A stretch of DNA of 64,000 nucleotides from Vitreimonas sp. (GTDB lineage Bacteria; Patescibacteriota; Microgenomatia; UBA1400; PJMF01), in the NCBI GenBank assembly GCA_035627515.1, contig DASPLQ010000012.1, forward strand, positions 391,269 through 455,268, in the 5' to 3' direction. The first letter of the stretch is position 1. Every line of letters begins with the position of its first letter. Of the stretch, positions 11,598 through 63,717 are shown piece by piece. The notes under the pieces were generated by a model that was not told the origin of the DNA, searched no databases, and saw only the letters and a list, made by a program, of their open reading frames with translations. The position numbers were made by a program, and so were the translations under genes.

Positions 11598-11699
11598 AAA
11601 CGCTTTTAATTAAGTAACTAAATTATTAACTAACTCAATTACTTGAGAATTACTCCTCAAAAAGTGAAGAAAATAAGTCATGAGCCAAAAGACTGGCTA

Positions 11700-14668
<2,969 letters not shown>

Positions 14669-14894
14669 ATATTTGTTTGAAATATTTGTTGTTGGATGCT
14701 ACCTACTTTGACAAAAATCAAAATAGGAATACGTCAGCCAATTGCTTTTGGCTGACATGACAATTTTCTTCACTTTTTAAAGAGCAATGCTTGGATAAAA
14801 TCCAAGTTTCAAAACTCAAATTTCACATTTGAAGTCTGGAACTCGGTTTCTAACCTTGTGGACCAAGCTGAGCTTGGTGTCACCCCAGCTAAGC

Positions 14895-14972
14895 TGGTGG
14901 ACCCTAAGGGGCTCGAACCCTTGACCTCCTCATTGCAAATGAGGCGCTCTAAGCCAACTGAGCTAAGGGCCC
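14895..14972 (-). tRNA. tRNA-Ala (anticodon UGC) with encoded CCA
   Basis: The minus strand reads GGGCCCTTAGCTCAGTTGGTTAGAGCGCCTCATTTGCAATGAGGAGGTCAAGGGTTCGAGCCCCTTAGGGTCCACCA. It has cloverleaf arms and a TGC anticodon in a 7-nt loop. Confidence 0.85.
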
Positions 14973-24788: not shown

Positions 24789-25445
24789 CTATTTAGATAA
24801 TTGTTGTAGCGTCAAAGCCACATAGAACAAACGTTTTATACGCTCAAAAGTTGTATCGCCAATTCCTCTTCCTAAATCTGGTCTGTGCCCCTGATGCCCT
24901 TGTCGCGCTAACTCCTTTAATTCTTCGATGCCTTCAACTTCAATAATTATTTTAACTATTTCTTCAGTCAAAAATTCCACCTCAGCTCCCTCGTAACTCA
25001 TAAACAATCTCGAAACTTTGTTAAATGTATCAATACCCCCATACAACTCTTTGGAAAGTGTTTCTAAAAATGATTGGGAAATTCGTTGAGAAAGATAAGT
25101 ATTTAACCGCTGCTGAACAACTTCAATGGGAAGCTCGAGACCCTCTTTCAATACCTCTTGATATTCAGTGTGGCTTAACTCTGCTGTAAAACTATGATTA
25201 TCCTCAGACTTCACTTTAGCGATACTTACTTTCTTTGCCATTTCTAAAAGTCCCTTGATTTCCAACAAGGCTATGACCTTGCTCTCATCCAAAGCCAGAC
25301 TTAAAGTCATCATCCTGTGATCATCAACGGTAGTTTCTTCAGCAACAATGCTCTCAAATAAAGTGCGTTCGGTTAATAAGCCTTCCATGATCTTGAAAAG
25401 CTCCATAGGGAACGTAAGTGTGTGGGTAATCTCTCGTGATGACAT
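24789..25445 (-). CDS. hypothetical protein (218 aa)
   Basis: ORF with no confident family. Confidence 0.45.
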   Translation of the reverse strand: MSSREITHTLTFPMELFKIMEGLLTERTLFESIVAEETTVDDHRMMTLSLALDESKVIALLEIKGLLEMAKKVSIAKVKSEDNHSFTAELSHTEYQEVLKEGLELPIEVVQQRLNTYLSQRISQSFLETLSKELYGGIDTFNKVSRLFMSYEGAEVEFLTEEIVKIIIEVEGIEELKELARQGHQGHRPDLGRGIGDTTFERIKRLFYVALTLQQLSK

Positions 25446-25497
25446 AGTGGGGAGATTCTAACATGAGAATCCTCATAAAAATTGGTTTTTGTGTGGC

Positions 25498-25526
25498 TTG
25501 TATGATTTTTGCCAATATTCATACAA
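25498..25526. repeat. palindromic motif P, copy 1
   Basis: TTGTATGA-tttttgccaatat-TCATACAA has 8-bp inverted arms and a 13-nt spacer. A second copy at 41988-42016 has identical arms and the spacer inverted. Confidence 0.6.
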
Positions 25527-25580
25527 ACAAAAAAAATGATGCAAAATTCTAACCCACCGCGGAGCAGGTTTTGTCAGCAC

Positions 25581-25611
25581 TGTGCCAATATTAACAAAAA
25601 TCGCACAATCG
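25581..25611. repeat. motif M, copy 1
   Basis: TGTGCCAATATTAACAAAAATCGCACAATCG. It matches 63686-63717 (reverse orientation) at 27/28 positions and shares its first 17 nt with 41867-41883. TGTGC and GCACA form imperfect inverted half-sites 17 nt apart. Confidence 0.6.
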
Positions 25612-25701
25612 AAAAGAAACGTTGGCAAACTCTCACACCTCTCCCCCTCGTTTAACAAAATCATAATTTGCATACTCAACAATTATGTATTATGATAAGT
25701 A

Positions 25702-26097
25702 TTGAATATGTCGAAATACACAATAGAAAACGTTTTAGAACATCTTAATTCTTTTGAAAAACAATCTGAGCGAAATTGGTATCACACTTTTTTGATGGAA
25801 TTATCATTCAAGATCGCTTATCTGCGGCCGTTAACAACCACCAAATCAGATGAGTATCTTGAGCGTGAGGAAGAGTTAAAGCAGGATCTGGTGAAACGAG
25901 TAGAGTATTTTTCAAGTAACACTAAAGCTTATGAGTTTGCTAAAAGCCTGGTGGAGTGTTTAGGAACAAATGACCCCGAGCTAAGAATATTCCAGGCTAC
26001 CATGACGAAATTAATTCCACAGTTTCGCACCACTCTGGGTTTGACACTTTTAACCCAAGCCGAGGCCGAAGCCAAAGCTGCTCAAATCAAAGCTTAA
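25702..26097 (+). CDS. hypothetical protein (131 aa)
   Basis: ORF with no family recognised. Confidence 0.45.
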   Translation: MNMSKYTIENVLEHLNSFEKQSERNWYHTFLMELSFKIAYLRPLTTTKSDEYLEREEELKQDLVKRVEYFSSNTKAYEFAKSLVECLGTNDPELRIFQATMTKLIPQFRTTLGLTLLTQAEAEAKAAQIKA

Positions 26098-26127
26098 AAA
26101 GCGGGCTGATTTGCCTAAAACACTTCC

Positions 26128-26904
26128 CTACGCCGCCTTGCGTCGAGAGCTAGCTTGAGCAGCCATGAACTCATTCATGCCTTCCACAGCTCGCAGGATT
26201 TCCAATGGCACCGCAAAGACTACGGTGTTCGATTGATCTGAGGAAATATCATTGATGGAGTTGAGTGTTCTGAGGTGTAACGCACCTGGTGTACGAGCCA
26301 TCATCTCAGCAGCCTTGGCCAAGTTTTCAGCCGAAGCAACTTCACCTTCAGAGGCAATAATCGTGGCTTTCTTTTCCCGCTCTGCCTCGGCTTGCTTAGC
26401 CATCGTCCGGACCATAGATTCGGGCAACTCGATGTCTTTCAGCTCCACACTCTGGACATCTACTCCCCAACTGGTGGTGGCTTCTTCCACGTGCCTGAGA
26501 ATGTCTTTGGCAATCTTTTCACGGTTGGAAAGCAACTCATCTAACGTCGCTTCACCGGCAATACGCCGCATCGTCGTTTGAGCCAGCTGTGAGACCGCCC
26601 AGAACACGTTTTCGACTTCATTGATGGCTTTAGCGGCATCAGTGACTTTATAGTAAATAACGGCGTTCATTTTGCACGAGACGTTGTCACGAGTAATGAC
26701 TTCTTGTTTAGGAACATCGACGGCCTTAGTACGGATGTCAACTTTGGTAAAACTTTGAAAAATAGGGATCACAAACCGCCAGCCGGCCCCCACCACACCA
26801 CTAAACCGACCCATGGTGTAAATGACTCCCCGCTCATACTCATTAACTTGACGTAAGATCATGGGTAATAACACGACGGCAACGATTAAAAGGAAAATCC
26901 ACAT
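26128..26904 (-). CDS. SPFH/band-7 (stomatin/prohibitin-like) membrane protein
   Basis: An N-terminal TM is followed by YERGVIYTMGRF...VDIRTKAVDVPKQEVITRDNV...IYYKVTDAAKA and a coiled AEAEREKKA tail. This is a typical SPFH domain. Confidence 0.75.
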   Translation of the reverse strand: MWIFLLIVAVVLLPMILRQVNEYERGVIYTMGRFSGVVGAGWRFVIPIFQSFTKVDIRTKAVDVPKQEVITRDNVSCKMNAVIYYKVTDAAKAINEVENVFWAVSQLAQTTMRRIAGEATLDELLSNREKIAKDILRHVEEATTSWGVDVQSVELKDIELPESMVRTMAKQAEAEREKKATIIASEGEVASAENLAKAAEMMARTPGALHLRTLNSINDISSDQSNTVVFAVPLEILRAVEGMNEFMAAQASSRRKAA

Positions 26905-27013
26905 AAGCTCCTTGAGATGAATTTGTGACTAATGGTGATTGTATCACTCGGCTAAAATAACACCAGTGACTTCTGGTCTAGAGAAAACCTTGGCCTAGCA
27001 GTATAATTTCGGC

Positions 27014-29260
27014 ATGGATTCTCGCTATAACCACCTCGACCACGAAGATACTATTTATCAACAATGGCAAACTGCTGAAGCCTTCAACCCTGATAAGAAC
27101 AGCCGCTCAGTTGCTAAACCTTCTTCCAAAACTGATCAAAAGACATCGTTTAGTATCATGATGCCCCCGCCCAATGCCAACGATCCGTTGCACATTGGCC
27201 ATGCCATCTTTACCACCATTGAAGACGTTTTAATTCGCTACCACCGCATGTTGGGTGACGACACCTTGTGGCTACCCGGTACCGATCACGCCGGCATTGA
27301 AACCCAGTTTGTGTTTGAAAAGAAACTCAAAAAAGAAGGCAAATCTCGCTTTCAATTCGATCGTAAGACGCTCTACCAAATGATTTGGGAGTACGTTCAA
27401 GAAAACTCGGATATCGCTGTCAACCAACTCAAAAAAATCGGTGCTAGCGCTGATTGGTCACGCTTTAAATTTATGCTGGATCCCAGTATCGTTGAAGTGG
27501 CGCTAGCTACGTTTAATAAACTCCACACAGCAGGTTTGGTCTATCGCAATCAACAATTAGTGAACTTTTGCACGAGTTGTGGCACGAGTTACTCAGAGCT
27601 AGAAGTTAATTATGTTGATAAGGTGGACCCACTTTATTATGTGAAGTATCCTCTCGTCGGCCAACCAGGCGAGTTCATCGTGGTAGCCACGGTCCGTCCA
27701 GAGCCGATTTTTGTAGACACTCACTTGGCAGTTCATCCCACTAACCCCAAAACCAAACACTTAATTGGCAAAAAAGTTTTGAATCCCCTTACCGATGTAG
27801 AAATGGAAATTATTGCCGACGAGTTTGTCGATCCGGAGTTTGGCACCGGTATTGTAAAGTTGACACCCGCTCATGATCCCCATGACTATGAAGTCGCTAA
27901 AAAACATGGCTTGCCTTTGGTGTCAGCCGTGGACTTCAGTGGTAAAATCACTGCCGCTGGAGGCAAGTATGCCGGGCTCAAGGTCGAAGCCGCCCGCCAA
28001 CAAGTGGTGGCTGATTTGGAAGCCAAAGGCTTACTTGAAAAAGTTGATAGTAAGTATAACCACCGGATTGGAACGTGTTATCGGTGTGGGCGGGTGATTG
28101 AACCACTGCTGCGTCCCCAATTTTTTATTAAAGTTAAAGAATTGACTCAGCCTGTCTTAACCGCTCTCGATAATGGTGACGTCACCATTCACGGCGCTGG
28201 CCACGACAAAATCCTTCGCCATTGGTTAGAAAACTTGCGTGACTGGAACATCAGTCGTCAAATTGTATGGGGAATTCGGATTCCAGTTTGGTATCCAGTA
28301 GCCGGCAATGAAGATAAGTTAGTTGTCAGTTTTATCGATAACAACAAAACCTTCCACCAAGGTCCTTTATCTGAGTGGCTACCAACCTTTTCGCTATCAG
28401 AAATTGAGAGTGGTCTCCAGCAACTACTCGCGCTAGAGTCTCTCCCCTACTCTGTTTCACAAGACAAACCTCAAGACGGTCAAGAGTACTTGCCGGAAAC
28501 TGACACTTTTGACACTTGGTTTAGCTCCGGCCAATGGCCCTTTGCTACCCTCCAAACCACCCAACCCGGCGACTTTGACCGCTTCTACCCTACTTCAGTG
28601 ATGGAAACCGGCTATGATATCTTGCCCTTTTGGGTGATGCGAATGTTAATGCTCGGCACATTTGCTACTGGCCAAGTTCCTTTCAAAAACGTCTATTTAC
28701 ATGGCCTTGTCCGCGACCAAAAAGGTCAAAAAATGAGCAAAAGCAAAGGCAACGTCATTAATCCGTTGGAAATTATCGAGAAGTATGGTGCCGATGCTCT
28801 GCGAATGGCATTGGTAATTCGCTCTAGTGCCGGACTTGATAAGTCTGTGGGCGAGCCTGATTTCAAAGCCATGCGCAATTTGACTAACAAGCTCTGGAAT
28901 GCTGCTCGTTTTATTCACCAAAATCCAGATAAAGTTGCTGCTGCTGACCCGAAGTCAGGAGATGCAGCATTCATGGAGAGATTAGAAACTGTCACCACCT
29001 CAGTCACTCAACAATTAAATGATTTCAAGATTGGTCTGGCCGCTGAGACGCTTTATAACGAATTTTGGCATTGGTTTTGTGATGAAGCTATCGAACAAGC
29101 CAAGGCCGGCGAGTTGTCATATCAGACCTTAAACACAGGTTTAATTCGCTTTCTAAAGCTCTTCCACCCCTTTATCCCGTTTGTCACCGAGACCATTTGG
29201 CAAGCCTTTGAAAATCCCACTTTGCTTATCTTGGAGAGTTGGCCTACTATAGATGAGTAA
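27014..29260 (+). CDS. valS: valine--tRNA ligase (compact form without a C-terminal coiled coil)
   Basis: Class Ia HIGH region PPPNANDPLHIGHA. Also DTWFSSGQWPF, FYPTSVMETGYDILPFWVMRM and KMSKSKGN. Length 748 aa. Confidence 0.7.
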   Translation: MDSRYNHLDHEDTIYQQWQTAEAFNPDKNSRSVAKPSSKTDQKTSFSIMMPPPNANDPLHIGHAIFTTIEDVLIRYHRMLGDDTLWLPGTDHAGIETQFVFEKKLKKEGKSRFQFDRKTLYQMIWEYVQENSDIAVNQLKKIGASADWSRFKFMLDPSIVEVALATFNKLHTAGLVYRNQQLVNFCTSCGTSYSELEVNYVDKVDPLYYVKYPLVGQPGEFIVVATVRPEPIFVDTHLAVHPTNPKTKHLIGKKVLNPLTDVEMEIIADEFVDPEFGTGIVKLTPAHDPHDYEVAKKHGLPLVSAVDFSGKITAAGGKYAGLKVEAARQQVVADLEAKGLLEKVDSKYNHRIGTCYRCGRVIEPLLRPQFFIKVKELTQPVLTALDNGDVTIHGAGHDKILRHWLENLRDWNISRQIVWGIRIPVWYPVAGNEDKLVVSFIDNNKTFHQGPLSEWLPTFSLSEIESGLQQLLALESLPYSVSQDKPQDGQEYLPETDTFDTWFSSGQWPFATLQTTQPGDFDRFYPTSVMETGYDILPFWVMRMLMLGTFATGQVPFKNVYLHGLVRDQKGQKMSKSKGNVINPLEIIEKYGADALRMALVIRSSAGLDKSVGEPDFKAMRNLTNKLWNAARFIHQNPDKVAAADPKSGDAAFMERLETVTTSVTQQLNDFKIGLAAETLYNEFWHWFCDEAIEQAKAGELSYQTLNTGLIRFLKLFHPFIPFVTETIWQAFENPTLLILESWPTIDE

Positions 29261-29736
29261 TGACTCGTCTATTGCTGTTACCTTTTTTCCTACTCAATTT
29301 AGTAACTCGCGTCAGTCTCGATCTCTTAGGCTGGTCCCTCCAGTTGTTTCCTTTTTATAGTCTGGTGGGCTCAGCTTTCTTTTTAGTAGTGATTGTCTTT
29401 TCTTGGTGGCAAATGGCAACCACACTCGTGGTTACCTCTCCCCCACCCTCGCTAGCGGCTGAGGTCAGTGCTGCCTTAAATACCGCTCAAGTCCCAACGC
29501 TGACCCTTGCTACCGACGCCGATTATGAGGGCGTTATTAAAGAAATTAAGATCTGGGAAGAATACGCTGCTCTCCAACCAACTCACCGGGACGTCTTGAT
29601 CAATTTAGCTTTGTTGCACTTTTACTTAAATAACCAAGCTGGTGCTCAATGGTTCTGGAAACAAGCCGCCCAGATTGATCCCAACGCACCCATTTTCACC
29701 TCTCCCCTCCCCGCCTTTCAACCTGAGACCAAGTAA
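29260..29736 (+). CDS. hypothetical membrane protein (158 aa)
   Basis: The ORF's start overlaps the valS stop. It has hydrophobic N-terminal segments. Confidence 0.45.
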   Translation: MTRLLLLPFFLLNLVTRVSLDLLGWSLQLFPFYSLVGSAFFLVVIVFSWWQMATTLVVTSPPPSLAAEVSAALNTAQVPTLTLATDADYEGVIKEIKIWEEYAALQPTHRDVLINLALLHFYLNNQAGAQWFWKQAAQIDPNAPIFTSPLPAFQPETK

Positions 29737-29776
29737 CAAAAAACCCGCCGGTGGTGATCACGCGGCGGGTTGTTAA
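29737..29776. terminator. bidirectional Rho-independent terminator between convergent genes
   Basis: AAAAAACCCGCCG-gtggtgatcacg-CGGCGGGTTGTTAATTT. A 7-bp GC stem has a T-rich tail on the plus strand and TTTTTTGTT on the minus strand. Confidence 0.65.
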
Positions 29777-29791
29777 TTTAAAAAAGAGTTT

Positions 29792-30463
29792 TTACTCGGC
29801 TTTTTCTTCAGTCTTTTCTTCAGTTCCTTCAGTAGCAGGAGCTGCAGCTTCACCCTCTGTGCCTTCGGCTACTGGAGCTTCTTCAACTGGCTCGGCTTGT
29901 TCTTTGAACTCTTGGAGCATCACCACTGGAGATTCTTCTGTTTCTTCACCTAATACCAGGGTAACTTTGGTTTTGTCATACTTCAAATCAGCATAGGTAA
30001 TGGTCTGGCCAATTGCCGTCAAAGTACTAGCATCGATCTCGAATTTTTCTGGTAAATCAGTGGGTAAGGCCTCGACTTCGATGACGTCGTGTAAGGTCAA
30101 GAGCACTGATTCGGGCACTTCACTTTGACCAATGACTTCGACTGGGATCTCAGCTTTAAGCTTTTCTTTTAAGTTCACTTGGCGGAAAACAACGTGAATG
30201 GGGTGATTTTTGACTACATCAACCTGCAGATCTTCCACTAAGACTGGACGAGCAGTTTTTTCACCTTCAATTGTCAAATAAATTAAACCGTTATCCCCTG
30301 CTTTTTCATACAGCTTTAAAAAAGCTGCTTGGGGTAAAGCTAACATAATTGAGTTTTCGCCAGGAACGGAAACGTTGGCGGGAATCAAGCGTTGAGCCCG
30401 GACCGTTTTGACGGCTTTACCAGCAATAGTTCTGAGTTGTGCAGAGAAAGTAAGTTTTTCCAT
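29792..30463 (-). CDS. rplY: 50S ribosomal protein L25 / general stress protein Ctc, with a Glu/Ala/Thr-rich C-terminal tail
   Basis: MEKLTFSAQLRTIAGKAVKTVRAQRLIPANV... is an L25/Ctc N-domain followed by the Ctc C-domain. The acidic tail is EAPVAEGTEGEAAAPATEGTEEKTEEKAE. Confidence 0.7.
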   Translation of the reverse strand: MEKLTFSAQLRTIAGKAVKTVRAQRLIPANVSVPGENSIMLALPQAAFLKLYEKAGDNGLIYLTIEGEKTARPVLVEDLQVDVVKNHPIHVVFRQVNLKEKLKAEIPVEVIGQSEVPESVLLTLHDVIEVEALPTDLPEKFEIDASTLTAIGQTITYADLKYDKTKVTLVLGEETEESPVVMLQEFKEQAEPVEEAPVAEGTEGEAAAPATEGTEEKTEEKAE

Positions 30464-30648
30464 AAGTGCTTAAATGATTAATAGCTAAGAGCCGGATTAT
30501 AGAGGTTTTTGCCTCAGGAAGCAAGTTTAGACCAAACTTCACGTGATATAGGATATAATCGCCAAAAAGTAGAATTTTATCTCTGGAAAGTAGATTCTTT
30601 TCGGTGTATCAAATATGTGTTCAAAATTTATTTCTGTATAAATCTAGA

Positions 30649-33600
30649 TTAGCGAGACTTTTTAATTTCTACCCCTACAAAAGCGTGATTGTTAAAATCT
30701 CCTTTAAAAAGAATTTGGTTGTTTTGAACTTGTGCTTGAGGAGCAATTACCATGGGTTGTAAACCAGGGGAGAGAGCAAAAGTAATGGTTTTAGTGTCAC
30801 CACTGGTACCAGGTTGCTTTTGATCAAGGAAAGTATAAGCAAAGGCGTTTTCCGCGAGCAAAGGCTTGGTGTAGATTACTTCGATTTTAGTTTCTTGTTG
30901 AATTGGCGTCTCAGTTAAAAAGCCAATACTTTTTTTATCCTGCTCAGTTCCTACAATTAGCTGGTCGGGGGAGAGGGGAGTGCCATTGACGCTCACGGCT
31001 TGGACTTGGGTGTCAGTGGGTAAATAAAAACGCGTGTAGGTTTTATATGGTCCTTTGGGCCAGGCATTAGAGCTCGAAGTGTTTTTATAGACAATTGTAC
31101 GAACATGGCGAGCAGTTGTTGGCTCCAGCGTGACAGTATGAGCAATGCTCCGTTCTAAATGGTAGTTAGCTTTATTGACCCCCACATTGGCCTCCACTTG
31201 ATAAACTGAATCAACCACACACGGAACCCCAGAAAATTGGGTCGGGCACAACGGGGAAAGGACGCTTCCTGTCCAACCTAAAGTATTGAGTGTTTCATTT
31301 TGAGTAGGATCACTCATCGACAGTAACGCTTGATGTTCACCTAAAGACTGATTGAAGGCGGCCAAAACCGGCCCGACTTTTTCAGGGGGTAACGTGGTGA
31401 GTCTGACTAGGACACGATTGAGCAAGACTTCTGAATACTCTTGACGAGTGGGATCAGGAGTTAATTGAATTTCGGAGTGAAACTCCATCCGTTCAAACAG
31501 GTTGCGATCAGTAATCACTTCGTTGTACTCCGGTAACTCAACTGGTCCCAACGCTTTGATTAGCGTTTGCAAACTGTATAAGTTTATCCCGATTACACCG
31601 TCAGCTTTTTTGCCGGTCGCGCGCTCTATAAAATGAGCCACCTGAGCCGCTGTAGTGGGGAAATCCGGGTTCCAATTACTATCTCTCACGAACCATTGCT
31701 GTTCACCTAAAAACTGTTTAATTTCGTCGGGTGGTTTAATCGATCCACCTAGTTTTTGATCAAGCTCGTAAATATCAAAAACTTGGGTGTTGATGAGAGT
31801 TCCTTTATCGAAGGTCATTAAAGCTACGGCCTGAATAAAGCCACCAGTAGGGCGTAGCTCTTGGTTGTTTTGTAATAACACGGCATACGTTTTTTGTTGT
31901 TGATAGCCTAGCCATTCCAACAAATGAGGGGAGAGTTGTTGAAAACTGGCTAAATTGCGACGATTTTGCAGTAGTTGAGCTTGGTAATTTTTTATCACAT
32001 CCTCATCACTACTAGAGGTTGTCACGCTTTCTAGTTCTTTTAACTCAGCTTGGAGTTGTGAAAGATGATCGTAGAGTGCTTGCGTCTGTTGTTGGGATTG
32101 GGTATGAAGTGATGCCACTTCTTGCTCTCGTGCACCCAAGATACTTAAAACTAAGTTTTGCATATCTTGTTGCCAAGCAGAGTAGAGAGTCGCACTCGTC
32201 GTGACTTTTTGGGCCACGGTACTTACTAATTGGGCTTGATCTAGATACTGGTGAGTAAAAAGCGCTCCATACGCTTGAGTTTGGGTCGCTAGCCACTGAC
32301 CAGCCCATCCGGTTTGAGGGGCTTGGATGCTATTGGCGTCTTGGCGAGCTAGACTTGCGATTAAGGCTGCTTGAGTTCGGGAAAAACTGGCCCAAAACAC
32401 CACGCCTAAGACACCCATCGCTAATACGGCGCCAAAAACTCCGATGCCGCCATAAAAAATAGCTGTTTTTTTCTTTGATTTATGCGTAATTTTAAGAGTA
32501 TTCTTGGCAATGTCTTTGACCCGTTCCACTTTGTATTCTGAACGATTGACAGTAAATAATTGTGAAACAGCTTGATCAAGCTGAGACTCTGTCGAAGCTA
32601 CACGCTCCGGATGGTTATGCTTGGTGACAGATAGCTGGTGAGTCTGTGTTTTTTCTTCTGGCTGTGGTTTGGGCTGAGTGGCTGTTTTTGGTAGGGGAGA
32701 ACTCAGTTGCTCCACACTCGTTTTGACTACGGGCACCGACTTAATGGGAATTTTGATGTTTTTAGCTTCCCCATGGTGAGACTGGGGGGTTGGGCGAGGG
32801 CGGGCCTGTTTACTAGGAGTAGGCAAACTTTCTTTGAGAGCTTGTTCTGCTGCCGCTGCTTGAGTTTGTTGGTGCAGCTGGGTGGCGTTTATGAGTGGCA
32901 AGCTCCGTACGGCATTCTCCAGTTCAGCATCGACAGATTTTTCAGCTTTAACCTGAATTTCCAAAAAACCAACTGCACTGTGTAGTTGTGCCGCTAGGGG
33001 GACAATCTGCAGTTCCTGATCAAAGTATTGACGATATAAAAACTGCAGCGTTTGGGCAACACCGCTGGTGGCTTGTTGTTGACCCCTCAATAACAAACGT
33101 GGGTGGGGCCGCGGATGAAAAAGATGTTGCCGGACTTCACTCACAAATGAAGCCGTATTAAGCCAAGGTAGTACGAGTTGAGGGTCACGAATTTGTCCCT
33201 GATTAAAGTTGGCTAACATCAATCCCAACAGCGCAGACTCAGGCAGCGATTGTCCATGAATCAAGTTTTCGCCTATGATCCAGGTAGAGGCGGAGGCTTC
33301 TTGTTGCAGTTGTTCAAACCACTGGGCTTGGTGGTTTTGTGCTGATTGCCACGGTTGTTCAGTTGTGGTCAGAAAAGAAAGCGTGGAACCGATAATGACA
33401 CTCGGTTCAGTGCGCGTCTTCAACCAACTTAACAGCTGTTTATCACTGGCTGAAAAAGCCGTGGTAGATTCGACAACCCAGATAATTTTATAAAATTCAG
33501 GTAAAGTTGCCGGTTGTGTGCGGAGGATTTCACTAACTGTGGCAGTTTGCACTGCAAAGTGAGTGGCGCACTCTTTTTCCAGAGCCATGCGTAAAAAAGT

Positions 33601-33666
33601 CGGCGAACCAATCACTAAAACGCTGGGAGCCTCTTGATCGAGTTGCGTGATAAATAAATCTGACAT
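30649..33666 (-). CDS. large membrane-anchored protein (1005 aa). The C-terminal extracytoplasmic region resembles a DUF4012-type domain.
   Basis: Central TM (IFYGGIGVFGAVLAMGVLGVVFW), then NNQELRPTGGFIQAVALMTFDKG...VIGINLYSLQTLIKALGPVELP. The DUF4012 assignment is from memory and tentative. Confidence 0.5.
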   Translation of the reverse strand: MSDLFITQLDQEAPSVLVIGSPTFLRMALEKECATHFAVQTATVSEILRTQPATLPEFYKIIWVVESTTAFSASDKQLLSWLKTRTEPSVIIGSTLSFLTTTEQPWQSAQNHQAQWFEQLQQEASASTWIIGENLIHGQSLPESALLGLMLANFNQGQIRDPQLVLPWLNTASFVSEVRQHLFHPRPHPRLLLRGQQQATSGVAQTLQFLYRQYFDQELQIVPLAAQLHSAVGFLEIQVKAEKSVDAELENAVRSLPLINATQLHQQTQAAAAEQALKESLPTPSKQARPRPTPQSHHGEAKNIKIPIKSVPVVKTSVEQLSSPLPKTATQPKPQPEEKTQTHQLSVTKHNHPERVASTESQLDQAVSQLFTVNRSEYKVERVKDIAKNTLKITHKSKKKTAIFYGGIGVFGAVLAMGVLGVVFWASFSRTQAALIASLARQDANSIQAPQTGWAGQWLATQTQAYGALFTHQYLDQAQLVSTVAQKVTTSATLYSAWQQDMQNLVLSILGAREQEVASLHTQSQQQTQALYDHLSQLQAELKELESVTTSSSDEDVIKNYQAQLLQNRRNLASFQQLSPHLLEWLGYQQQKTYAVLLQNNQELRPTGGFIQAVALMTFDKGTLINTQVFDIYELDQKLGGSIKPPDEIKQFLGEQQWFVRDSNWNPDFPTTAAQVAHFIERATGKKADGVIGINLYSLQTLIKALGPVELPEYNEVITDRNLFERMEFHSEIQLTPDPTRQEYSEVLLNRVLVRLTTLPPEKVGPVLAAFNQSLGEHQALLSMSDPTQNETLNTLGWTGSVLSPLCPTQFSGVPCVVDSVYQVEANVGVNKANYHLERSIAHTVTLEPTTARHVRTIVYKNTSSSNAWPKGPYKTYTRFYLPTDTQVQAVSVNGTPLSPDQLIVGTEQDKKSIGFLTETPIQQETKIEVIYTKPLLAENAFAYTFLDQKQPGTSGDTKTITFALSPGLQPMVIAPQAQVQNNQILFKGDFNNHAFVGVEIKKSR

Positions 33667-33782
33667 AGGCAGGTCAAAACAACTGTCTTATTGTAGGAAA
33701 CAGCCGAAATGAAGTATAGCCCAATCTTGCAGGCAGGTTTAGAGTGAGATCAATACTAGAAGATGTAGAGAAGCGGCGTGAG

Positions 33783-34208
33783 TTAAACTTCTTGACCAAG
33801 ATCCAGCGCGCGATTGACCAAAGCATCAGCCACTTTATTTTCAGCCCGAGGGATATGAACGATATCCCAGTCACATGATAATTGTTGAAGTGATGCCCAA
33901 GCTTGCTGAGCGAGCGCTAACATCCGCGGTTCTTTAATTTGCCAATGCTTGAGAAGTTGTTCTACCACCAGTTTGGAATCAAGTTTCCAAATTACTTTTT
34001 GCGTTTGAGCTAACTGTTCAGAAGCTAATAACCAGCCTACTGATGTCACAAAAGCTTGATACTCGGCTTCGTTATTAGTACCAACTCCTAAAGGTTTCCC
34101 TAAGGAAAACACCGTTTGGCCGTGATCGTCTATGACGTGTACGCCCAACGCCGCCGGTCCCGGATTTCCGCGTGAACCACCATCGGTAAAAATAGTCAGA
34201 GTGGACAT
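33783..34208 (-). CDS. rnhA: ribonuclease HI
   Basis: TIFTDGGSRGNPGPAALGVHV...GTNNEAEYQA...VHIPRAENKVADALVN is the RNase H catalytic signature. Confidence 0.8.
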   Translation of the reverse strand: MSTLTIFTDGGSRGNPGPAALGVHVIDDHGQTVFSLGKPLGVGTNNEAEYQAFVTSVGWLLASEQLAQTQKVIWKLDSKLVVEQLLKHWQIKEPRMLALAQQAWASLQQLSCDWDIVHIPRAENKVADALVNRALDLGQEV

Positions 34209-34672
34209 TAATTACTATCCTTCAATCGAATCATCAGATAGCGATGAGCGCCTTCACCTTGAGAAACACTCTCCAAACTAGCAAAGTCAGGGTTTTCGGA
34301 AATGGTGGTGTGAATGACGAAGCGTTCGTTGGGTGGCAAGTACGCAAAGGTGTACGGTCGGCCACTTTCCAGCACTCGGCGGGCTACGTTTTCAGCCATT
34401 TCTTGTAATTTTTCCACGCGCTGTTCGCGATAGTTATTAATATTTAACACAATTTTTTTGTCGCCATGTTCTTTTTGAAAAATGATGCGGATCAAGCGCT
34501 GCAAGCTACTGAGGGTTTCGCCATGAAAACCAATAAATAAACCCGATTCTTCCTGGGGTAAATTAATATTTACCGTCACTTGATCTTCGGCTTCATCGAC
34601 GGAAACTTCGACTTGGCTTTGATCGATACCACTGTGTTTGCATAAGTTAGTGACGTAGCTTTGGATAGTCAT
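34208..34672 (-). CDS. jag: Jag/KhpB RNA-binding protein (Jag_N, KH and R3H domains)
   Basis: The R3H/KH region is KIVLNINNYREQRVEKLQEMAENVARRVLESGRPYTFAYLPPNERFVIH. It lies downstream of yidC. The start is taken at MTIQSY. Confidence 0.7.
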   Translation of the reverse strand: MTIQSYVTNLCKHSGIDQSQVEVSVDEAEDQVTVNINLPQEESGLFIGFHGETLSSLQRLIRIIFQKEHGDKKIVLNINNYREQRVEKLQEMAENVARRVLESGRPYTFAYLPPNERFVIHTTISENPDFASLESVSQGEGAHRYLMIRLKDSN

Positions 34673-34688
34673 AAAATAATCTCCTTTT

Positions 34689-35459
34689 TCAGTTGCGGGT
34701 GGTTTTGCCATCGAGGACGTTGAGAGCGCGTTGAGCATACAGCGTCAAGCCACCAGGTCCTGATAATACATATTGCTGAACAATACTAAAAACGGTGCTC
34801 ACCACCCAATATAAACCGAGCCCAGATGGGAACGAGAGCGCCGAAATACCAATTGTGATCGGCATGAGAAACACCATTTGTTGCTGCATGGTTTGAGCCA
34901 TTTCTGCCATGTCTTCTTCTTTTTTATTGGCTTCTTTGATTTCTTTAGGTAACGTTTTATTCGGGACAATGTCAGGAGTTTCAGTGGCGGGCAAGATCAT
35001 CAACGACAAAATGAATTGGGTCACAGCTGCTAACACCGGAATCACAAACCGCGGATCTGGTTGACTTAAGTTCATCCACAAAAAAGTGGGGTCAATGGTG
35101 ACGCCATTAACATCAGCTTGGTGTAAAAAGCGCATTAAAGCTCGATAGAGAATTAATAACACCGCGATTTGCAACAATTGAGGCAAGCAGCCACCGAGGG
35201 GATTAACGTTATATTTTTTGTAGAGCTCTAGCTGAGCTAATTGTAAAGCTTGTTTATCAGAACCATGTTTGGCTTTGAGTTTTTTGAGTTCCGGTTGGAG
35301 TTCTTTAAGTTGTTTTTGGGCTTTCAAAGAGGGGATAGTCAAAGGCACCAAAATTGATTTAATCAAAATGGTAAATACTATCAACGCTAAACCTAAGTCG
35401 CCAGTTAGTTTATATAACTCAACTAAAAAAGTAGAAAAAAGGTGAATAATACTATCCAT
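34689..35459 (-). CDS. yidC: membrane protein insertase YidC/Oxa1 (short Gram-positive-type)
   Basis: GGCLPQLLQIAVLLILYRAL and MFLMPITIGISALSFPSGLGLYWVVSTVFSIVQQYV. Five-TM YidC core. Confidence 0.8.
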   Translation of the reverse strand: MDSIIHLFSTFLVELYKLTGDLGLALIVFTILIKSILVPLTIPSLKAQKQLKELQPELKKLKAKHGSDKQALQLAQLELYKKYNVNPLGGCLPQLLQIAVLLILYRALMRFLHQADVNGVTIDPTFLWMNLSQPDPRFVIPVLAAVTQFILSLMILPATETPDIVPNKTLPKEIKEANKKEEDMAEMAQTMQQQMVFLMPITIGISALSFPSGLGLYWVVSTVFSIVQQYVLSGPGGLTLYAQRALNVLDGKTTRN

Positions 35460-35465
35460 ATTTTA

Positions 35466-35678
35466 TTACCAGCACTGGGCCACCCGCTTGAGTCCACGAA
35501 GGAACCCAGTGATTGTACCATGTTGCTGCATTTGCTGAAGAGTATATTGCGTACACGTCGGGCGATGTTTACAAGTAAATGAATAACCAAAGGCCGTGAG
35601 CAAGATTTGATGCTTGGCTTTTTCGTAAAAAAGAAAGAGCCAGATAAGGCTTTTTTTTAAGGCTCGGGAGACGGTCAT
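35466..35678 (-). CDS. yidD: membrane protein insertion efficiency factor YidD-like
   Basis: A small ORF between rnpA and yidC with FGYSFTCKHRPTCTQYTLQQMQQHG...LKRVAQCW (conserved Cys pattern). The start is taken at MTVSRALKK. Confidence 0.5.
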   Translation of the reverse strand: MTVSRALKKSLIWLFLFYEKAKHQILLTAFGYSFTCKHRPTCTQYTLQQMQQHGTITGFLRGLKRVAQCW

Positions 35679-36001
35679 TTTTTTATCTTGGCTAGACTTT
35701 TTAATAACTCTGATTTGAGCGTAGCACCATCTACCTTGGTGGCTGCGGGCTTTAGTGAGATCACCACTTGGCAATTTACTAGATCAGCTTGTAGTAAATC
35801 TGTCCAAATTTGTGCTAATCGCCGTTTGAGCGTATTGCGCTCCACTTGTGTCTGGGTGTTTTTGCGCGGCACGATGGTGGCCACAGCTGGGCGATCTGCC
35901 GGCACATAAAACAAGGTAAACAAGCTCGAAAAAACTCGCTGAGAGCGATTAAAAAAGTCTGGTTGTTGGCGAAGTTGCAACCGGTACTGGCGAGGCACCA
36001 T
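35675..36001 (-). CDS. rnpA: ribonuclease P protein component
   Basis: Basic 108-aa protein (VPRQYRLQLRQQ...TIVPRKNTQTQVERNTLKRRL) immediately downstream of rpmH. Confidence 0.8.
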   Translation of the reverse strand: MVPRQYRLQLRQQPDFFNRSQRVFSSLFTLFYVPADRPAVATIVPRKNTQTQVERNTLKRRLAQIWTDLLQADLVNCQVVISLKPAATKVDGATLKSELLKSLAKIKK

Positions 36002-36012
36002 ATGTGTTAAGA

Positions 36013-36165
36013 CTAGCGACCTTTACGGACTACTGTCAATTGCTTGCGACCTTTAGCGCGACGACGTTTTAAAACTTGTCGGCCAAAATAGGAAGCCATT
36101 CTCTTGAGGAAACCATGTTTGCGCATGCGTTTGTGTTTTTTTGGTTGCCAGGTGCGTTTCGTCAT
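36013..36165 (-). CDS. rpmH: 50S ribosomal protein L34 (50 aa; missed by the ORF track)
   Basis: The reverse-complement ORF reads [50 protein letters not shown], a near-consensus L34. Confidence 0.85.
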
Positions 36166-36279
36166 AAATTGTTTGTAAACCTTTTTCCAAGGTCGTAATT
36201 ATAACATAAGAGTAGAGTAAAATAAGTAACTGAAGTAATTGAATAATTAAAAAAGCGTGTCGGCTAATTACTCAATTAC

Positions 36280-37386
36280 TTAATTACTAACCCGGAACGG
36301 CATCACTACATAGCTATAGCCTAGTTGGCCTTCTGGCCGCAACAAGGCTGGCTTTAAGCTCTCAGTCATCCCTAGCCAAATTTTCTCGCCTTTGCTGGCA
36401 TTTAAAAAATCTTGCAGATACTTAGCGTTAAAAGCAATTTTCCCACCCTCGCCCTGAAAAGAATCGAGCATCATCTCACTTTCATGCTTACCTAAAGCGG
36501 GAGAAGTCGCCGAAATACTCGCCTTTCCATCACTTAAACTCAAATGAACAATGTTCGAAGCATCTCGAGCAAAGATAATGGCTCGCTTAAGGTGATGAGT
36601 CATTTCTTGGCTATCGAATAACACCTCAGTAGTGAAGCTACTGGGCATAATTTTTTGATACGGAGGAAACTCTCCATCCATCAACCGCACAAAAATCTTA
36701 GTCGATTCAAATTGAAATAAGAGTTGTTTCAGTTCTGGTGATAATGTCAGTGCTACTTGAGTTGCTTTAGTCTGAGCGCCAATTCTAGCCACTTCTTGGA
36801 GTGATTTGGCGGGAATCAAAAAGTTCTGAGTAAAAGCAAATGAAGACGGCATGTTCCAGACAGCGAGACGAAAGCCATCGGTGCACACAACATTGACGTT
36901 TTCTTGATTAAACTCAAACAGTACCGAGGTCAACACTGGCCGAGTGGTATCAAGTGAGGCAGCAAAGAGCACATGGCTGGTAATTTCTTCCAAAAAGGTA
37001 CTGGGCAACTCTTGAGTGTCACCGCTGACCTCAGGAAATGAGGGGAAGTCTTCAGCTGACTGGCATTGAAATGAAGTGCTACTGTCTTGAGAGGTAATAG
37101 TTAAGGTGGACTCTACCAGCTCCAACGTGACCTTGCCTGGTTTCAGGCTAGCAATGGTTTCATAAAAGACTTTACCAGGAATAGCAACTACTCCTGGAGT
37201 ATCGATGGTGCCTTCGACTCCAGTTTGAATACCTAAATAGAGATCTGTGGCTGATAAGCGGATTTCACCACTTTGAGTGTCAATGAGGATCGAACTTAAA
37301 ATAGGTAACGATGGTTTACTGGGAACAGCTTTTTGAACAATCCCAACCGCTGTTAACAGATTTTCTTGTAAAACAGTTATTTTCAT
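36280..37386 (-). CDS. dnaN: DNA polymerase III beta sliding clamp
   Basis: MKITVLQENLLTAVGIVQKAV..., a three-domain 368-aa protein downstream of dnaA. Confidence 0.85.
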   Translation of the reverse strand: MKITVLQENLLTAVGIVQKAVPSKPSLPILSSILIDTQSGEIRLSATDLYLGIQTGVEGTIDTPGVVAIPGKVFYETIASLKPGKVTLELVESTLTITSQDSSTSFQCQSAEDFPSFPEVSGDTQELPSTFLEEITSHVLFAASLDTTRPVLTSVLFEFNQENVNVVCTDGFRLAVWNMPSSFAFTQNFLIPAKSLQEVARIGAQTKATQVALTLSPELKQLLFQFESTKIFVRLMDGEFPPYQKIMPSSFTTEVLFDSQEMTHHLKRAIIFARDASNIVHLSLSDGKASISATSPALGKHESEMMLDSFQGEGGKIAFNAKYLQDFLNASKGEKIWLGMTESLKPALLRPEGQLGYSYVVMPFRVSN

Positions 37387-39327: not shown

Positions 39328-39399
39328 ATAAAAACATCACAAGATAAACCAGGTGGCTACACACTGGTCTAGGCAAATACAAGCTCTTCGGCAGGAAAG

Positions 39400-39432: not shown

Positions 39433-39474
39433 GACAAGGGGAAGAAAAGCTGGATCAATAGAGATGCTCTTGGA

Positions 39475-41508: not shown

Positions 41509-41590
41509 TGCTCCTTATTGTACGGTACTTTAGGGAGGAAAAGAAAGGGGTGGTGGAGTAAGAAGGGTATATAATGCCGACAAATAAAAG
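41509..41590. promoter_or_regulatory. divergent promoter region between virB4 and the small ORF
   Basis: A -10-like GGTATATAAT at 41560-41570. The RBS AAAGGTGA sits 8 nt upstream of the ATG at 41591. Confidence 0.35.
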
Positions 41591-41824
41591 GTGAAATATA
41601 TGGCAGAAAATGAACGAGAATTAGGGAAAAATGATGAAGCAGAATCAAGGACAGTGGGGCTGTTAAATTGGGAAGAGTTAACTCATGAATCTATCCTCAA
41701 CTTTTTAAGGCTTCAAGGAGGGGTAGAACTGGAAAATCTGTTAGCTCGCCGAACTGTATCTGAAAGACTCCAGATTAATGAGCGGGTAGTGCGACAGGCA
41801 CTTGAAAATGGAAGAAAAAGGTAG
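41591..41824 (+). CDS. small putative DNA-binding protein (77 aa) with a sigma-70 region-4-like HTH
   Basis: ILNFLRLQGG...RTVSERLQINERVVRQALENGRK resembles region 4.2 (LRFGL...TRERVRQIE). It has a good RBS and a -10. Confidence 0.4.
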   Translation: MKYMAENERELGKNDEAESRTVGLLNWEELTHESILNFLRLQGGVELENLLARRTVSERLQINERVVRQALENGRKR

Positions 41825-41866
41825 GTTTAGCGGAAAGGTTTGTTGAAAACACAATTTTTTCTATGC

Positions 41867-41883
41867 TGTGCCAATATTAACAA
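41867..41883. repeat. motif M, copy 2 (first 17 nt conserved)
   Basis: CTGTGCCAATATTAACAA is identical to the start of 25581-25611. Confidence 0.55.
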
Positions 41884-41987
41884 TTTTGAAACAATAAAAC
41901 AGACAATAATTGACAGCTTAAGAAAACAAGGCTTAGAGTTTTCATTGTTTTAAAGATGGTCTTCTTGTTGAGCACAGTTTTTCAGGC

Positions 41988-42016
41988 TTGTATGAATATT
42001 GGCAAAAATCATACAA
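41988..42016. repeat. palindromic motif P, copy 2
   Basis: TTGTATGA-atattggcaaaaa-TCATACAA. The arms match copy 1 and the spacer is the reverse complement of the copy-1 spacer. Confidence 0.6.
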
Positions 42017-42068
42017 ACTACACAAAAACCACTTTTTGAAGAAGAAATGATGAATCACAAACAAAAAC

Positions 42069-63685: not shown

Positions 63686-63717
63686 TTGTGCGGTTTTTGT
63701 TAATATTGGCACAATCG
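63686..63717. repeat. motif M, copy 3 (reverse orientation)
   Basis: TTGTGCGGTTTTTGTTAATATTGGCACAATCG. Its reverse complement matches 25581-25611 at 27/28 positions. Confidence 0.6.

What the first reader, a model, noticed from the sequence alone, without database searches (positions are those of the whole stretch)
25456..25611. A family of conserved intergenic motifs sharing a GCCAATATT core recurs at three loci
Two element types recur in intergenic DNA.

Motif M is TGTGCCAATATTAACAAAAA(T/C)CGCACAA. It occurs at 25581 and, reverse-complemented, at 63686 with 27/28 identity; its first 17 nt also occur at 41867. It contains imperfect inverted half-sites TGTGC...GCACA 17 nt apart, reminiscent of a dimeric transcription-factor operator.

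Motif P is TTGTATGA-N13-TCATACAA, at 25498 and 41988, with perfect 8-bp inverted arms. Its 13-nt spacer (tttttgccaatat) is inverted between the two copies while the immediate flanks (ggc...ac) keep the same orientation. An invertible or hairpin-extruding element could produce this pattern.

M and P share the core GCCAATATT-(A/C)A-(A/T)ACAA. Five copies in 64 kb, all intergenic and two of them inside the T4SS-like cluster, argue for a regulon operator or a miniature mobile or invertible element.
Basis: seen in the sequence. Interest (0 to 1): 0.6.

Follow-up and report, generated by a model that had tools for sequence, protein, structure and literature searches.

The report
Solitary toxin–antitoxin operator-promoter palindromes
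The recurring intergenic motifs are five copies of one 29-bp palindromic element that matches the promoter/operator of a toxin–antitoxin operon found in related ultra-small bacteria, but here it stands alone without those genes, so this is an interesting but fairly ordinary regulatory relic or re-used control site.

Summary
The motifs are real and non-random, but "M" and "P" are not two element types. Reverse-complemented M aligns with P over its whole length. This gives one 29-bp dyad-symmetric element, E = TTGTRYGATTTTTGYYAATATTSRYACAA, with two arm variants: P (TGTAT/ATACA) and M (TGTGC/GCACA).

The "inverted spacer" of P is an illusion. The second P is a reverse-complement copy of a 60-nt unit (88% identical).

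P is 26/27 identical to a palindrome that sits directly upstream of ribbon-helix-helix antitoxin + YafQ/RelE-type toxin operons in other contigs; at least part of this antitoxin family is labelled Patescibacteria. In those operons it lies between a TTGACA -35 and the start codon and contains an extended -10 (TGnTAATAT) 8 nt before the ATG. That is a classic autoregulated toxin–antitoxin (TA) promoter-operator.

In this window no TA genes or remnants follow any copy. The site-2 copies lie in a 560-nt insertion that 64 relatives lack. The neighbouring small genes are ORFans. No copies occur in 1.4 Mb of relatives' DNA.

The cores are intact while the flanks have decayed, which suggests the cores are still bound or used. 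Best reading: solitary TA-type operator/extended -10 promoter modules.

The window comes from a Patescibacteria (CPR) genome. Interest is modest.

The parts
25498..25526 (+). E copy P1: TTGTATGATTTTTGCCAATATTCATACAA. It has 8-bp arms and an extended -10-like TGcCAATAT, and points toward the 129-aa ORFan (25708-26097, +).
   Evidence: Model R1 gives 36 bits, E=9e-9. The nhmmer TA-operon profile hits it at E=5e-4. It is 26/27 identical to the TA operators of L082/L084/L086.
25477..25536 (+). Extended 60-nt repeat unit around P1, paired in inverted orientation with 41978-42037.
   Evidence: I1: 60 nt, 88% complementary; all 7 mismatches fall outside the 29-nt core (p about 0.007).
25580..25608 (-). 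E copy M1. On the minus strand it reads TTGTGCGATTTTTGTTAATATTGGCACAG. It is the arm variant TGTGC/GCACA with an extended -10 TGtTAATAT, and points toward the 218-aa gene (24789-25445, -).
   Evidence: R1 gives 29.2 bits, E=1e-6. It matches P at 20/27 and the TA operator at 21/27 in this orientation (counted by eye on the sequences).
41866..41894 (-). E copy M2', degenerate. On the minus strand it reads TTGTTTCAAAATTGTTAATATTGGCACAG. The left arm has decayed. The extended -10 and right arm are identical to M1/M3 over 17 nt (41867-41883).
   Evidence: R1 gives a partial hit of 12.7 bits.
41988..42016 (-). E copy P2. Its minus-strand sequence is identical to P1. It points toward the virB4-like gene (39475-41508, -), which is followed by the 554-aa ORF at 37663-39327 (presumed dnaA) and by dnaN.
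   Evidence: R1 gives 35.9 bits. nhmmer E=6.5e-4. Similarity to the L086 TA 5' region extends over 43 nt, up to the position of the antitoxin start codon.
41509..42068 (.). A 560-nt spacer between the Pro-rich T4SS-cluster gene and the virB4-like gene. It is a lineage-specific insertion carrying P2, a 22-32-aa hydrophobic ORF, M2' and an antisense 74/77-aa HTH-like ORFan (41591-41824, +).
   Evidence: The equivalent gap in 64 relatives has a median of about 20 nt and a maximum of 312 nt. The ORFan has no homologue.
63686..63714 (+). E copy M3: TTGTGCGGTTTTTGTTAATATTGGCACAA. It lies 60 nt after the stop of the 347-aa gene at the end of the T4SS-like cluster and is co-oriented with that gene. 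No ORF follows it within the window.
   Evidence: R1 gives 27.6 bits, E=4e-6. Its upstream flank resembles the P upstream flank at 14-15/24, against a null of 6 +/- 2.2.

Best explanation
The five intergenic motif copies are one family of about 29-bp dyad-symmetric elements, E = TTGTRYGATTTTTGYYAATATTSRYACAA. The family has two arm variants, 'P' and 'M'. It descends from the autoregulated promoter-operator of a type II toxin-antitoxin (TA) operon: a ribbon-helix-helix ParD/RelB-like antitoxin plus a YafQ/RelE/ParE-superfamily toxin. The antitoxin family includes Patescibacteria-labelled members.

In intact operons the palindrome starts 3 nt after a TTGAC(A/G/T) -35. It contains an extended -10 (TGnTAATAT) and usually ends 1 nt before the antitoxin ATG, which is leaderless geometry. 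The antitoxin dimer pair would therefore bind the two TTGTAT-type hexads and shut off its own promoter.

In this genome the element occurs alone, with no TA genes after any copy. I infer that the copies still work as protein-binding palindromes overlapping a -35-independent extended -10 promoter. By orientation they fire toward the 129-aa ORFan (P1), the 218-aa gene (M1), the virB4-like gene and the genes after it, including dnaN (P2, M2'), and an unidentified target (M3).

Shown: the family relationship, the homology to TA promoter-operators, the absence of TA genes, the insertion status of site 2, and core conservation against flank decay.

Inferred: present-day binding and promoter activity, and the identity of the binder.
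For: 1. Reverse-complemented M aligns with P in one register across all 27-29 nt (20/27, against 16/27 for forward M; counted by eye on the sequences).
2. Dyad symmetry is kept through paired arm changes. 96.8% of cells are paired, and 3 of 7 pairs changed on both sides.
3. A metagenome scan with the arm positions left free returned three different contigs. Each carries TGTATGATTTTTGCTAATATTCATACA (26/27 to P) directly upstream of an RHH antitoxin gene followed by a YafQ/RelE/ParE-family toxin gene.
4. Further antitoxin homologues fetched independently of the motif carry the same palindrome at the same place: L087, L091 and L118. L087 is a perfect 12+3+12 palindrome. L091 has covarying arms TGTATAA/TTATACA. 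L116 has a degenerate version.
5. In L082, L084, L087, L091 and L118 the geometry is TTGAC(A/G/T), a 17-nt spacer, TGn + TAATAT/TATTAT, 8 nt, then ATG. In L086 the -35 is TTGAAA and the ATG lies 20 nt after the -10, behind an AAGGAG leader.
6. A DNA profile of the whole TA operon hits the window only at P1 (+) and P2 (-), and only over the operator part (E about 5e-4).
7. P2 and P1 also resemble the L086 5'UTR up to the start-codon position (38-43 nt at 86-89%).
8. All five copies keep TGn + YAATAT.
9. The cores are conserved while the flanks decay. P1/P2 match 29/29 in the core with all 7 mismatches in the flanks (p about 0.007). M1/M3 match 27/29 with unrelated flanks. Different copies keep different flank remnants.
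10. The arms TTGTAT/ATACAA resemble the RelB hexad [A/T]TGT[A/C]A, which lies in a palindromic operator overlapping the relBE promoter (PMC2812701, read).
Against: - No TA gene or remnant lies near any copy.
- None of the 120 best antitoxin-family clusters lies on this genome's 1.41-Mb contig. A cognate RHH binder may therefore not exist here.
- None of the five copies has a credible -35, and a simple sigma-70 scan does not call them as promoters.
- No start codon sits at the leaderless position after any copy.
- Two arm variants in one genome would need either a tolerant binder or two binders.
- Function is untested. The copies could be inert.
Confidence: 0.55

Rival explanations
1. Inert relics. 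The copies are decaying leftovers of TA cassettes (promoter, 5'UTR and start codon) whose coding parts were deleted. They have no present function.
For: - No TA genes or remnants are present.
- No close antitoxin homologue lies on this contig among the top 120 clusters.
- The -35 is lost in all copies.
- M2' has lost its left arm.
- Site 2 is an insertion next to ORFan sequence.
- P1 and P2 keep similarity to a TA 5'UTR.
Against: - The cores stay intact where the flanks have diverged. P1/P2 match 29/29 with 7 flank mismatches (p about 0.007). M1/M3 match 27/29 with flanks at background identity.
- Arm changes between P and M are symmetric. Neutral decay would not produce that.
Confidence: 0.18
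2. Miniature mobile palindromic repeat of REP/REPIN or MITE type. A roughly 30-75-nt palindrome-centred unit is copied around the genome by a trans-acting transposase or recombinase.
For: - The copies are short imperfect palindromes in intergenic DNA, in both orientations, with arm covariation.
- At site 1 there is a convergent P/M pair 54 nt apart.
- Near-identical M cores sit in unrelated flanks.
- Site 2 is an insertion.
- A Logan assembly contig breaks exactly at the two P copies.
Against: - There are only five copies at three loci in about 72 kb. None lies in the extra 8 kb to the left of the window, and none in 1.4 Mb of relatives.
- I noticed no terminal inverted repeats or target duplications when reading the flanks, but this was not searched for systematically.
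- No transposase was recognised among the 10 ORFs adjacent to the three sites that were scanned. The rest of the window was not scanned.
- P is homologous, with fixed promoter geometry, to a TA operon control region.
Confidence: 0.15
3. Structured nucleic acid. The element acts as an RNA or single-stranded-DNA hairpin with an 8-bp stem and 13-nt loop. Examples would be an RNA stability or processing signal, or a recombinase or relaxase hairpin tied to the T4SS-like cluster.
For: - Compensatory AT to GC changes occur at two stem pairs between P and M, and another in L091.
- The P2 hairpin folds better than its shuffles (z = -4.6).
- Two of the three loci lie in or at the edge of the T4SS-like cluster.
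Against: - The hairpins are weak (-7 to -10.6 kcal/mol). Three of the four intact copies have z of only -1.1 to -1.4, and M2' does not fold.
- No Rfam match was found.
- In TA loci the predicted transcription start lies in or just after the right arm or at the ATG, so the left arm would not be in the mRNA.
- In L087 the symmetry extends through the 'loop' as a 12+3+12 palindrome. That is typical of a DNA operator, not of a loop.
Confidence: 0.07
4. Invertible DNA switch. The 13-nt P spacer, or the 16.4-kb segment between the inverted P copies, is flipped by a site-specific recombinase.
For: - The two P copies are inverted relative to each other and bound the segment 25.5-42.0 kb, which carries dnaN, rpmH, rnpA and yidC.
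- One short-read assembly breaks exactly at both copies.
Against: - The 'spacer inversion' is fully explained by a whole-element reverse-complement copy.
- Gene order across P2 (Pro-rich gene, then virB4) is the same as in the relatives examined, so there is no sign of an inversion.
- Contig breaks at repeats are expected in de Bruijn assemblies.
Confidence: 0.03

Closest known systems
relO, the operator of the E. coli relBE toxin-antitoxin operon (RHH antitoxin RelB; PMC2812701)
   Same: - The TA family found next to the element elsewhere has an RHH antitoxin and a RelE/YafQ-type toxin.
- The operator is palindromic and overlaps the promoter.
- The element's arm hexad TTGTAT/ATACAA fits the RelB hexad [A/T]TGT[A/C]A at 5 of 6 positions. 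The sixth is reported as the least critical.
   Different: - In relO the inverted hexads are adjacent (TTGTAATTACAA) and form two 12-bp half-sites. Here the outer hexads are 17 bp apart and enclose the -10.
- The window copies have no TA genes next to them.
- No binding data exist for this family.
mqsRA-like palindromes outside the mqsRA operon (antitoxin MqsA at rpoS/csgD promoters; PMC4894380)
   Same: Copies of a TA operator palindrome sit at other promoters, so an antitoxin could act as a wider regulator.
   Different: - MqsA is an HTH/zinc-ribbon antitoxin and its TA operon is present in the same genome.
- Here no cognate antitoxin gene was found among the top hits for this genome.
- Here the copies carry their own -10.
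REP/REPIN repetitive extragenic palindromes
   Same: Short imperfect palindromes confined to intergenic DNA, in either orientation, sometimes in inverted pairs, with variant classes that differ by paired stem changes.
   Different: - REPs occur in tens to hundreds of copies and are tied to a RAYT transposase (my own knowledge, not tested here).
- Here there are five copies at three loci, none in relatives, and clear homology to a promoter-operator.

Membership tests
Type II TA operon promoter-operator (RHH antitoxin, autoregulated) | Sequence homology to palindromes that sit at the promoters of bona fide antitoxin-toxin operons. | tested here: met
   P is 26/27 identical to the palindrome of L082/L084/L086. 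The same element lies upstream of independently fetched homologues L087, L091 and L118. The nhmmer operon profile hits P1 and P2 at E about 5e-4. M is a more distant variant (21/27).
Type II TA operon promoter-operator (RHH antitoxin, autoregulated) | Located immediately upstream of an antitoxin-toxin gene pair. | tested here: not met
   tblastn, an antitoxin HMM on the six-frame translation, and a DNA operon profile find no TA genes or remnants anywhere in the window. The window copies are therefore not filed as a TA operon, only as derived from its control region.
Type II TA operon promoter-operator (RHH antitoxin, autoregulated) | Dyad symmetry overlapping a complete sigma-70-type promoter (-35 and -10). 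| tested here: inconclusive
   Dyad symmetry and TGn+YAATAT are present in all copies. The -35 seen in the TA loci (TTGAC[A/G/T]; TTGAAA in L086) is absent, and the consensus scan does not call these sites.
Type II TA operon promoter-operator (RHH antitoxin, autoregulated) | Bound by the cognate antitoxin or the TA complex. | not testable with these tools
   This needs EMSA, DAP-seq or footprinting. No antitoxin-family cluster among the top 120 lies on this genome's contig.
REP/REPIN or MITE-type mobile repeat | High copy number dispersed through the genome. | tested here: inconclusive
   Five copies at three loci in 64 kb. None in a further 8 kb and none in 1.4 Mb of relatives. The rest of the 1.41-Mb genome could not be read.
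REP/REPIN or MITE-type mobile repeat | An associated transposase (RAYT/IS200-type), or terminal inverted repeats with target-site duplication. | not tested
   Only 10 ORFs flanking the three sites were scanned against Pfam, and none is a transposase. No systematic search for TIRs or target duplications was run. The whole genome was not available.
Site-specific invertible DNA switch | The same locus exists in two orientations between fixed flanks, with inverted repeats at the borders. | tested here: not met
   The two 'orientations' are at two different loci. They are explained by a reverse-complement copy whose flanks also match in reverse-complement orientation: 29/29 core and 29/48 flank, against 24/29 and 19/48 in direct orientation.
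Structured RNA family | A match to a described family, or a stable conserved fold. | tested here: not met
   No Rfam match at E<=1 apart from a meaningless miRNA hit. The hairpins are weak, with z between -1.1 and -1.4 for three of the four intact copies.

The most novel reading that the evidence does not exclude
A toxin-antitoxin promoter-operator has escaped its operon. It has been dispersed in a reduced CPR genome as a tiny portable control cassette: an RHH-binding palindrome plus a -35-independent promoter. It now ties the virB4-like operon and the replication genes behind it, together with lineage-specific ORFan genes, to a repressor encoded elsewhere. The two arm variants P and M would form two specificity classes. 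On this reading TA control regions would be a source of new regulatory wiring, or a new kind of very small mobile promoter.
Probability: 0.2. Interest if true: 0.55.

Novelty: new variant of a known kind. Interest (0 to 1): 0.3.

Why it matters
If the solitary copies are functional, this would be an example from a CPR/Patescibacteria genome of TA-operon control DNA re-used away from its operon. One copy pair sits in front of the T4SS-like ATPase gene and the replication genes behind it (dnaN). The palindrome described here also gives a testable operator for a widespread, uncharacterised Patescibacteria RHH–YafQ/RelE TA family. For the genome scan itself, the finding shows that the 'two motif types with an invertible spacer' are one palindromic element seen in both orientations.

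Tried and rejected
- Sigma-54 promoter and PmrA-box readings of the TGGCAC/TTAATATT strings. Rejected by eye: wrong spacing and no second half-site.
- Relatives via the DUF4012 protein in species genomes. Nothing found.
- Core 9-mer enrichment in relatives. Absent: 35 hits in 1.4 Mb.
- Viral contigs, searched with a relaxed pattern and with the antitoxin alignment. Only chance, non-palindromic matches, and no TA relatives.
- Plasmid and phage collections. Only an insignificant Acinetobacter match (E=0.2, not palindromic), and nothing in phages.
- TA remnants in the window. None.
- A cognate antitoxin on this genome's contig. Not among the top 120 clusters.
- Homologues of the neighbouring 129-aa and 74/77-aa ORFs, to test conservation of the motif beside them. 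Both are ORFans.
- Extending the window to the right, to see what M3 faces. Five look-ups failed or were off-target.
- The left extension succeeded and holds no copies.
- Rfam on the three spacers. Nothing.
- L038 model hit. It lies inside a coding region and is partial, so it was treated as chance.
- L083/L085 (TGTGCGATTTTTGCCAATATTTTTACA). The right arm is non-complementary and no gene context is clear. Left unexplained.

Full report
OBSERVATION

- M (TGTGCCAATATTAACAAAAATCGCACAA) is at 25581-25608.
- Its reverse complement is at 63686-63713 with one mismatch (I2).
- Its first 17 nt recur exactly at 41867-41883 (3 exact hits plus 1 three-mismatch hit, 0.24 expected).
- P (TTGTATGA-N13-TCATACAA) is at 25498-25526 and 41988-42016 (2 hits, 0.02 expected).
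- GCCAATATT occurs 12 times against 0.54 expected and is the most over-represented 9-mer in the window.
- Seven of those 12 hits are in coding DNA. Three arise from a repeated (E/Q)YW(Q/R) peptide in one 1437-aa ORF. That residual excess is no larger than for many other 9-mers.
- A mismatch-tolerant scan finds only the five intergenic copies.

ONE ELEMENT, NOT TWO, AND NO INVERTED SPACER

The two P copies are a plain inverted repeat of 60 nt at 88% identity (25477-25536 against 41978-42037, I1).
- In reverse-complement orientation the core matches 29/29 and the flanks 29/48.
- In direct orientation the core matches 24/29 and the flanks 19/48.

The arms are palindromic, so a reverse-complement copy looks like 'same arms, flipped spacer'.

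Reverse-complemented M aligns with P in a single register over the whole element.
- P reads TGTAT-GATTTTTG-CC-AATATT-CATACA.
- Reverse-complemented M reads TGTGC-GATTTTTG-TT-AATATT-GGCACA.
- This alignment gives 20/27. Forward M gives 16/27.

I call the common element E = TTGTRYGATTTTTGYYAATATTSRYACAA. The P/M differences in the arms are symmetric (TGTAT/ATACA against TGTGC/GCACA). On a 10-sequence alignment 96.8% of arm positions stay complementary, and 3 of 7 pairs change on both sides.

The GCCAATATT 'core' falls in the centre of P but straddles the arm of M, so it is partly a coincidence of the AATATT palindrome.

Orientation of E:
- 25498 (+)
- 25580 (-)
- 41866 (-, left arm decayed)
- 41988 (-)
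- 63686 (+)

At sites 2 and 3, E is co-oriented with the flanking genes.

GENOME CONTEXT

The window carries dnaN, rpmH, rnpA, yidC, a DUF4012 gene, L25, LeuRS, a 23S-5S pair and a T4SS-like cluster with a VirB4-like ATPase and a PrgI-like protein.

The VirB4-like protein is 100% identical to a protein on a 1,409,795-bp contig labelled 'Vitreimonas sp.'. All close relatives (72-85% identity) are Patescibacteria/CPR MAGs.

Upstream of virB4, 64 relatives have a gap of median about 20 nt (maximum 312), containing a TACAAT-N8-ATG promoter. The window has 560 nt. Site 2 is therefore a lineage-specific insertion. It carries P2, a 22-32-aa hydrophobic ORF, M2' and an antisense 74/77-aa HTH-like ORF. 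That ORF has no homologue among 1.84 billion representatives.

The 129-aa gene next to site 1 is also an ORFan.

No E copy occurs in 1.4 Mb around virB4 in 80 related species genomes, by mismatch scan or by a sequence model. None occurs in a further 8 kb of this genome to the left of the window.

WHAT E IS HOMOLOGOUS TO

I scanned JGI metagenome contigs with the arm positions left free (TGTNNGATTTTTGYYAATATTNNNACA). The scan gave five contigs.

Three different contigs (L082, L084, L086) carry the identical 27-mer TGTATGATTTTTGCTAATATTCATACA, which is 26/27 to P. In each it lies directly upstream of two genes:
- a gene of about 80 aa for a ribbon-helix-helix protein (MTTINISLP...; RHH_8, ParD and RelB/DinJ models);
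- a gene of about 85 aa for a toxin (YafQ, ParE and RelE/StbE models).

In L082 and L084 the layout is TTGACA, a 17-nt spacer, TGcTAATAT, 8 nt, then ATG. In L086 the -35 is TTGAAA and an AAGGAG leader precedes the ATG.

I then fetched further antitoxin homologues (46-81% identical) by protein, independently of the motif. They carry the same element in the same place.
- L087 reads TTGACActt-TGTATGAATATTGCTAATATTCATACA-tATG, a perfect 12+3+12 palindrome.
- L118 reads TGTATGATTATTGCTATTATTCATACA.
- L091 reads TGTATAATTATTGCTATTATTTATACA, with the arms covarying.
- L116 carries a degenerate version.

This is the usual anatomy of an autoregulated type II TA promoter-operator.

The arm hexad TTGTAT fits the RelB hexad [A/T]TGT[A/C]A of the palindromic relBE operator at 5 of 6 positions. 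The sixth position is reported as least critical (PMC2812701).

WHAT IS AND IS NOT IN THE WINDOW

A DNA profile of the whole TA operon hits the window only at P1 (+) and P2 (-), and only over the operator (E about 5e-4). tblastn and an antitoxin HMM find no TA genes or remnants.

P2 and P1 also resemble the L086 5'UTR up to the start-codon position (38-43 nt at 86-89%).

None of the 120 best antitoxin clusters lies on this genome's contig.

All five copies keep TGn+YAATAT. None has a credible -35, none is followed by a start codon at the leaderless distance, and the simple sigma-70 scan does not call them.

M and P are homologous beyond the core.
- M3's upstream flank matches the P upstream flank at 14-15/24.
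- M1's downstream flank matches P2's at 13/24.
- The null expectation is 6 +/- 2.2.

Yet M1 and M3 share 27/29 in the core with flanks at background level. P1 and P2 have all 7 of their mismatches outside the 29-nt core (p about 0.007). So a unit of about 75 nt was copied, the flanks decayed differently, and the cores were kept.

INTERPRETATION

Shown:
- There is one element family.
- It is homologous to a TA operon promoter-operator.
- The copies are solitary.
- Site 2 is an insertion.
- The family is absent from the relatives sampled.
- The core is preserved relative to the flanks.

Inferred: the copies still act as binding sites for an RHH-type repressor, overlapping a -35-independent extended -10 promoter. 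By orientation this promoter fires toward:
- the 129-aa ORFan (P1);
- the 218-aa gene (M1);
- virB4 and the genes after it, namely the 554-aa ORF taken to be dnaA (inferred from its position before dnaN; not scanned) and dnaN (P2, M2');
- an unknown target (M3).

M2' keeps only the -10 and the right arm. That speaks for promoter use as much as for operator use.

Precedent exists for operator-like palindromes of antitoxins at other promoters (MqsA; PMC4894380).

Rivals:
- Inert relics. This reading is weakened by core conservation and symmetric arm change.
- A REP/MITE-like mobile palindrome. It has low copy number and promoter homology against it, but the rest of the genome could not be read.
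- An RNA or ssDNA hairpin. The hairpins are weak (z about -1 for three of the four intact copies), Rfam gives nothing, and L087's symmetry runs through the 'loop'.
- An invertible switch. The spacer flip is explained away, and gene order across P2 is the same as in the relatives examined.

VERDICT

The 'invertible spacer', the 'GCCAATATT core' and the 'conserved regulon' are not supported.

This is a new variant of a known kind: TA control DNA found solitary in a CPR genome. Interest is modest (0.3). It would be higher only if the copies prove to be a functioning dispersed control cassette.

Noticed in passing
window 41509-42068: The spacer upstream of the virB4-like gene is 560 nt here. In 64 related genomes it has a median of about 20 nt and a maximum of 312 nt. 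The extra DNA carries an antisense 74/77-aa HTH-like ORF (41591-41824) with no homologue in 1.84 billion protein representatives. It also carries a 22-32-aa hydrophobic ORF (41877-41975, minus strand).
   Followed up: partly
window 25507-42016 (L001 / Logan SRR7003767_559): A 16,509-bp short-read contig from another sample runs exactly from P1 to P2, so that assembly breaks at the inverted P copies. The 16.4-kb segment between them holds the presumed dnaA, dnaN, rpmH, rnpA and yidC. Whether it ever inverts was not tested.
   Followed up: no
window, many gene starts (e.g. 41508, 49004, 18638, 11011); relatives L003, L004, L010: A TACAAT/TATAAT-like hexamer lies 6-11 nt before many start codons, including virB4 in the window and in relatives. 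Leaderless or very short-leader mRNAs therefore look common in this lineage.
   Followed up: partly
window 11478-14972 (minus strand): 23S and 5S rRNA genes lie with a tRNA-Ala upstream, but there is no 16S gene anywhere in the 64-kb window, so the rRNA operon is unlinked. One public assembly of this genome (ENA k141_237778, 1,409,690 bp) ends at a point corresponding to window position about 13844, inside the 23S gene.
   Followed up: no
whole window; loci L002-L081: The public taxonomic labels look wrong. This genome is named 'Vitreimonas sp.' and many relatives are named 'uncultured Pseudomonadales bacterium'. Gene content and all close homologues are Patescibacteria/CPR.
   Followed up: partly
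window 28000-32000: GC skew changes sign near 30 kb, between the L25 and DUF4012 genes. This is 7-9 kb from the 554-aa ORF at 37663-39327 taken to be dnaA (not scanned), which lies directly downstream of the virB4-like ATPase gene on the same strand.
   Followed up: no
window 59856, 59883, 60366 (ORF 56258-60571): Three of the GCCAATATT hits are the antisense of a repeated peptide motif, (E/Q)YW(Q/R), in one 1437-aa hypothetical protein of the T4SS-like cluster.
   Followed up: partly
L083 746-772 (= L085 505-531): A metagenome contig carries TGTGCGATTTTTGCCAATATTTTTACA. It has an M-type left arm, a P-type centre and a non-complementary right arm. It has no TA genes and no clear gene context, and it follows a high-GC stretch. 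It remains unexplained.
   Followed up: partly
L119 14238-16442 (about 1-3 kb left of the window): A VirD4/TrwB-like coupling-protein gene, a sortase gene and rho lie just outside the window. The T4SS-like genes are therefore split between two places about 40 kb apart.
   Followed up: no
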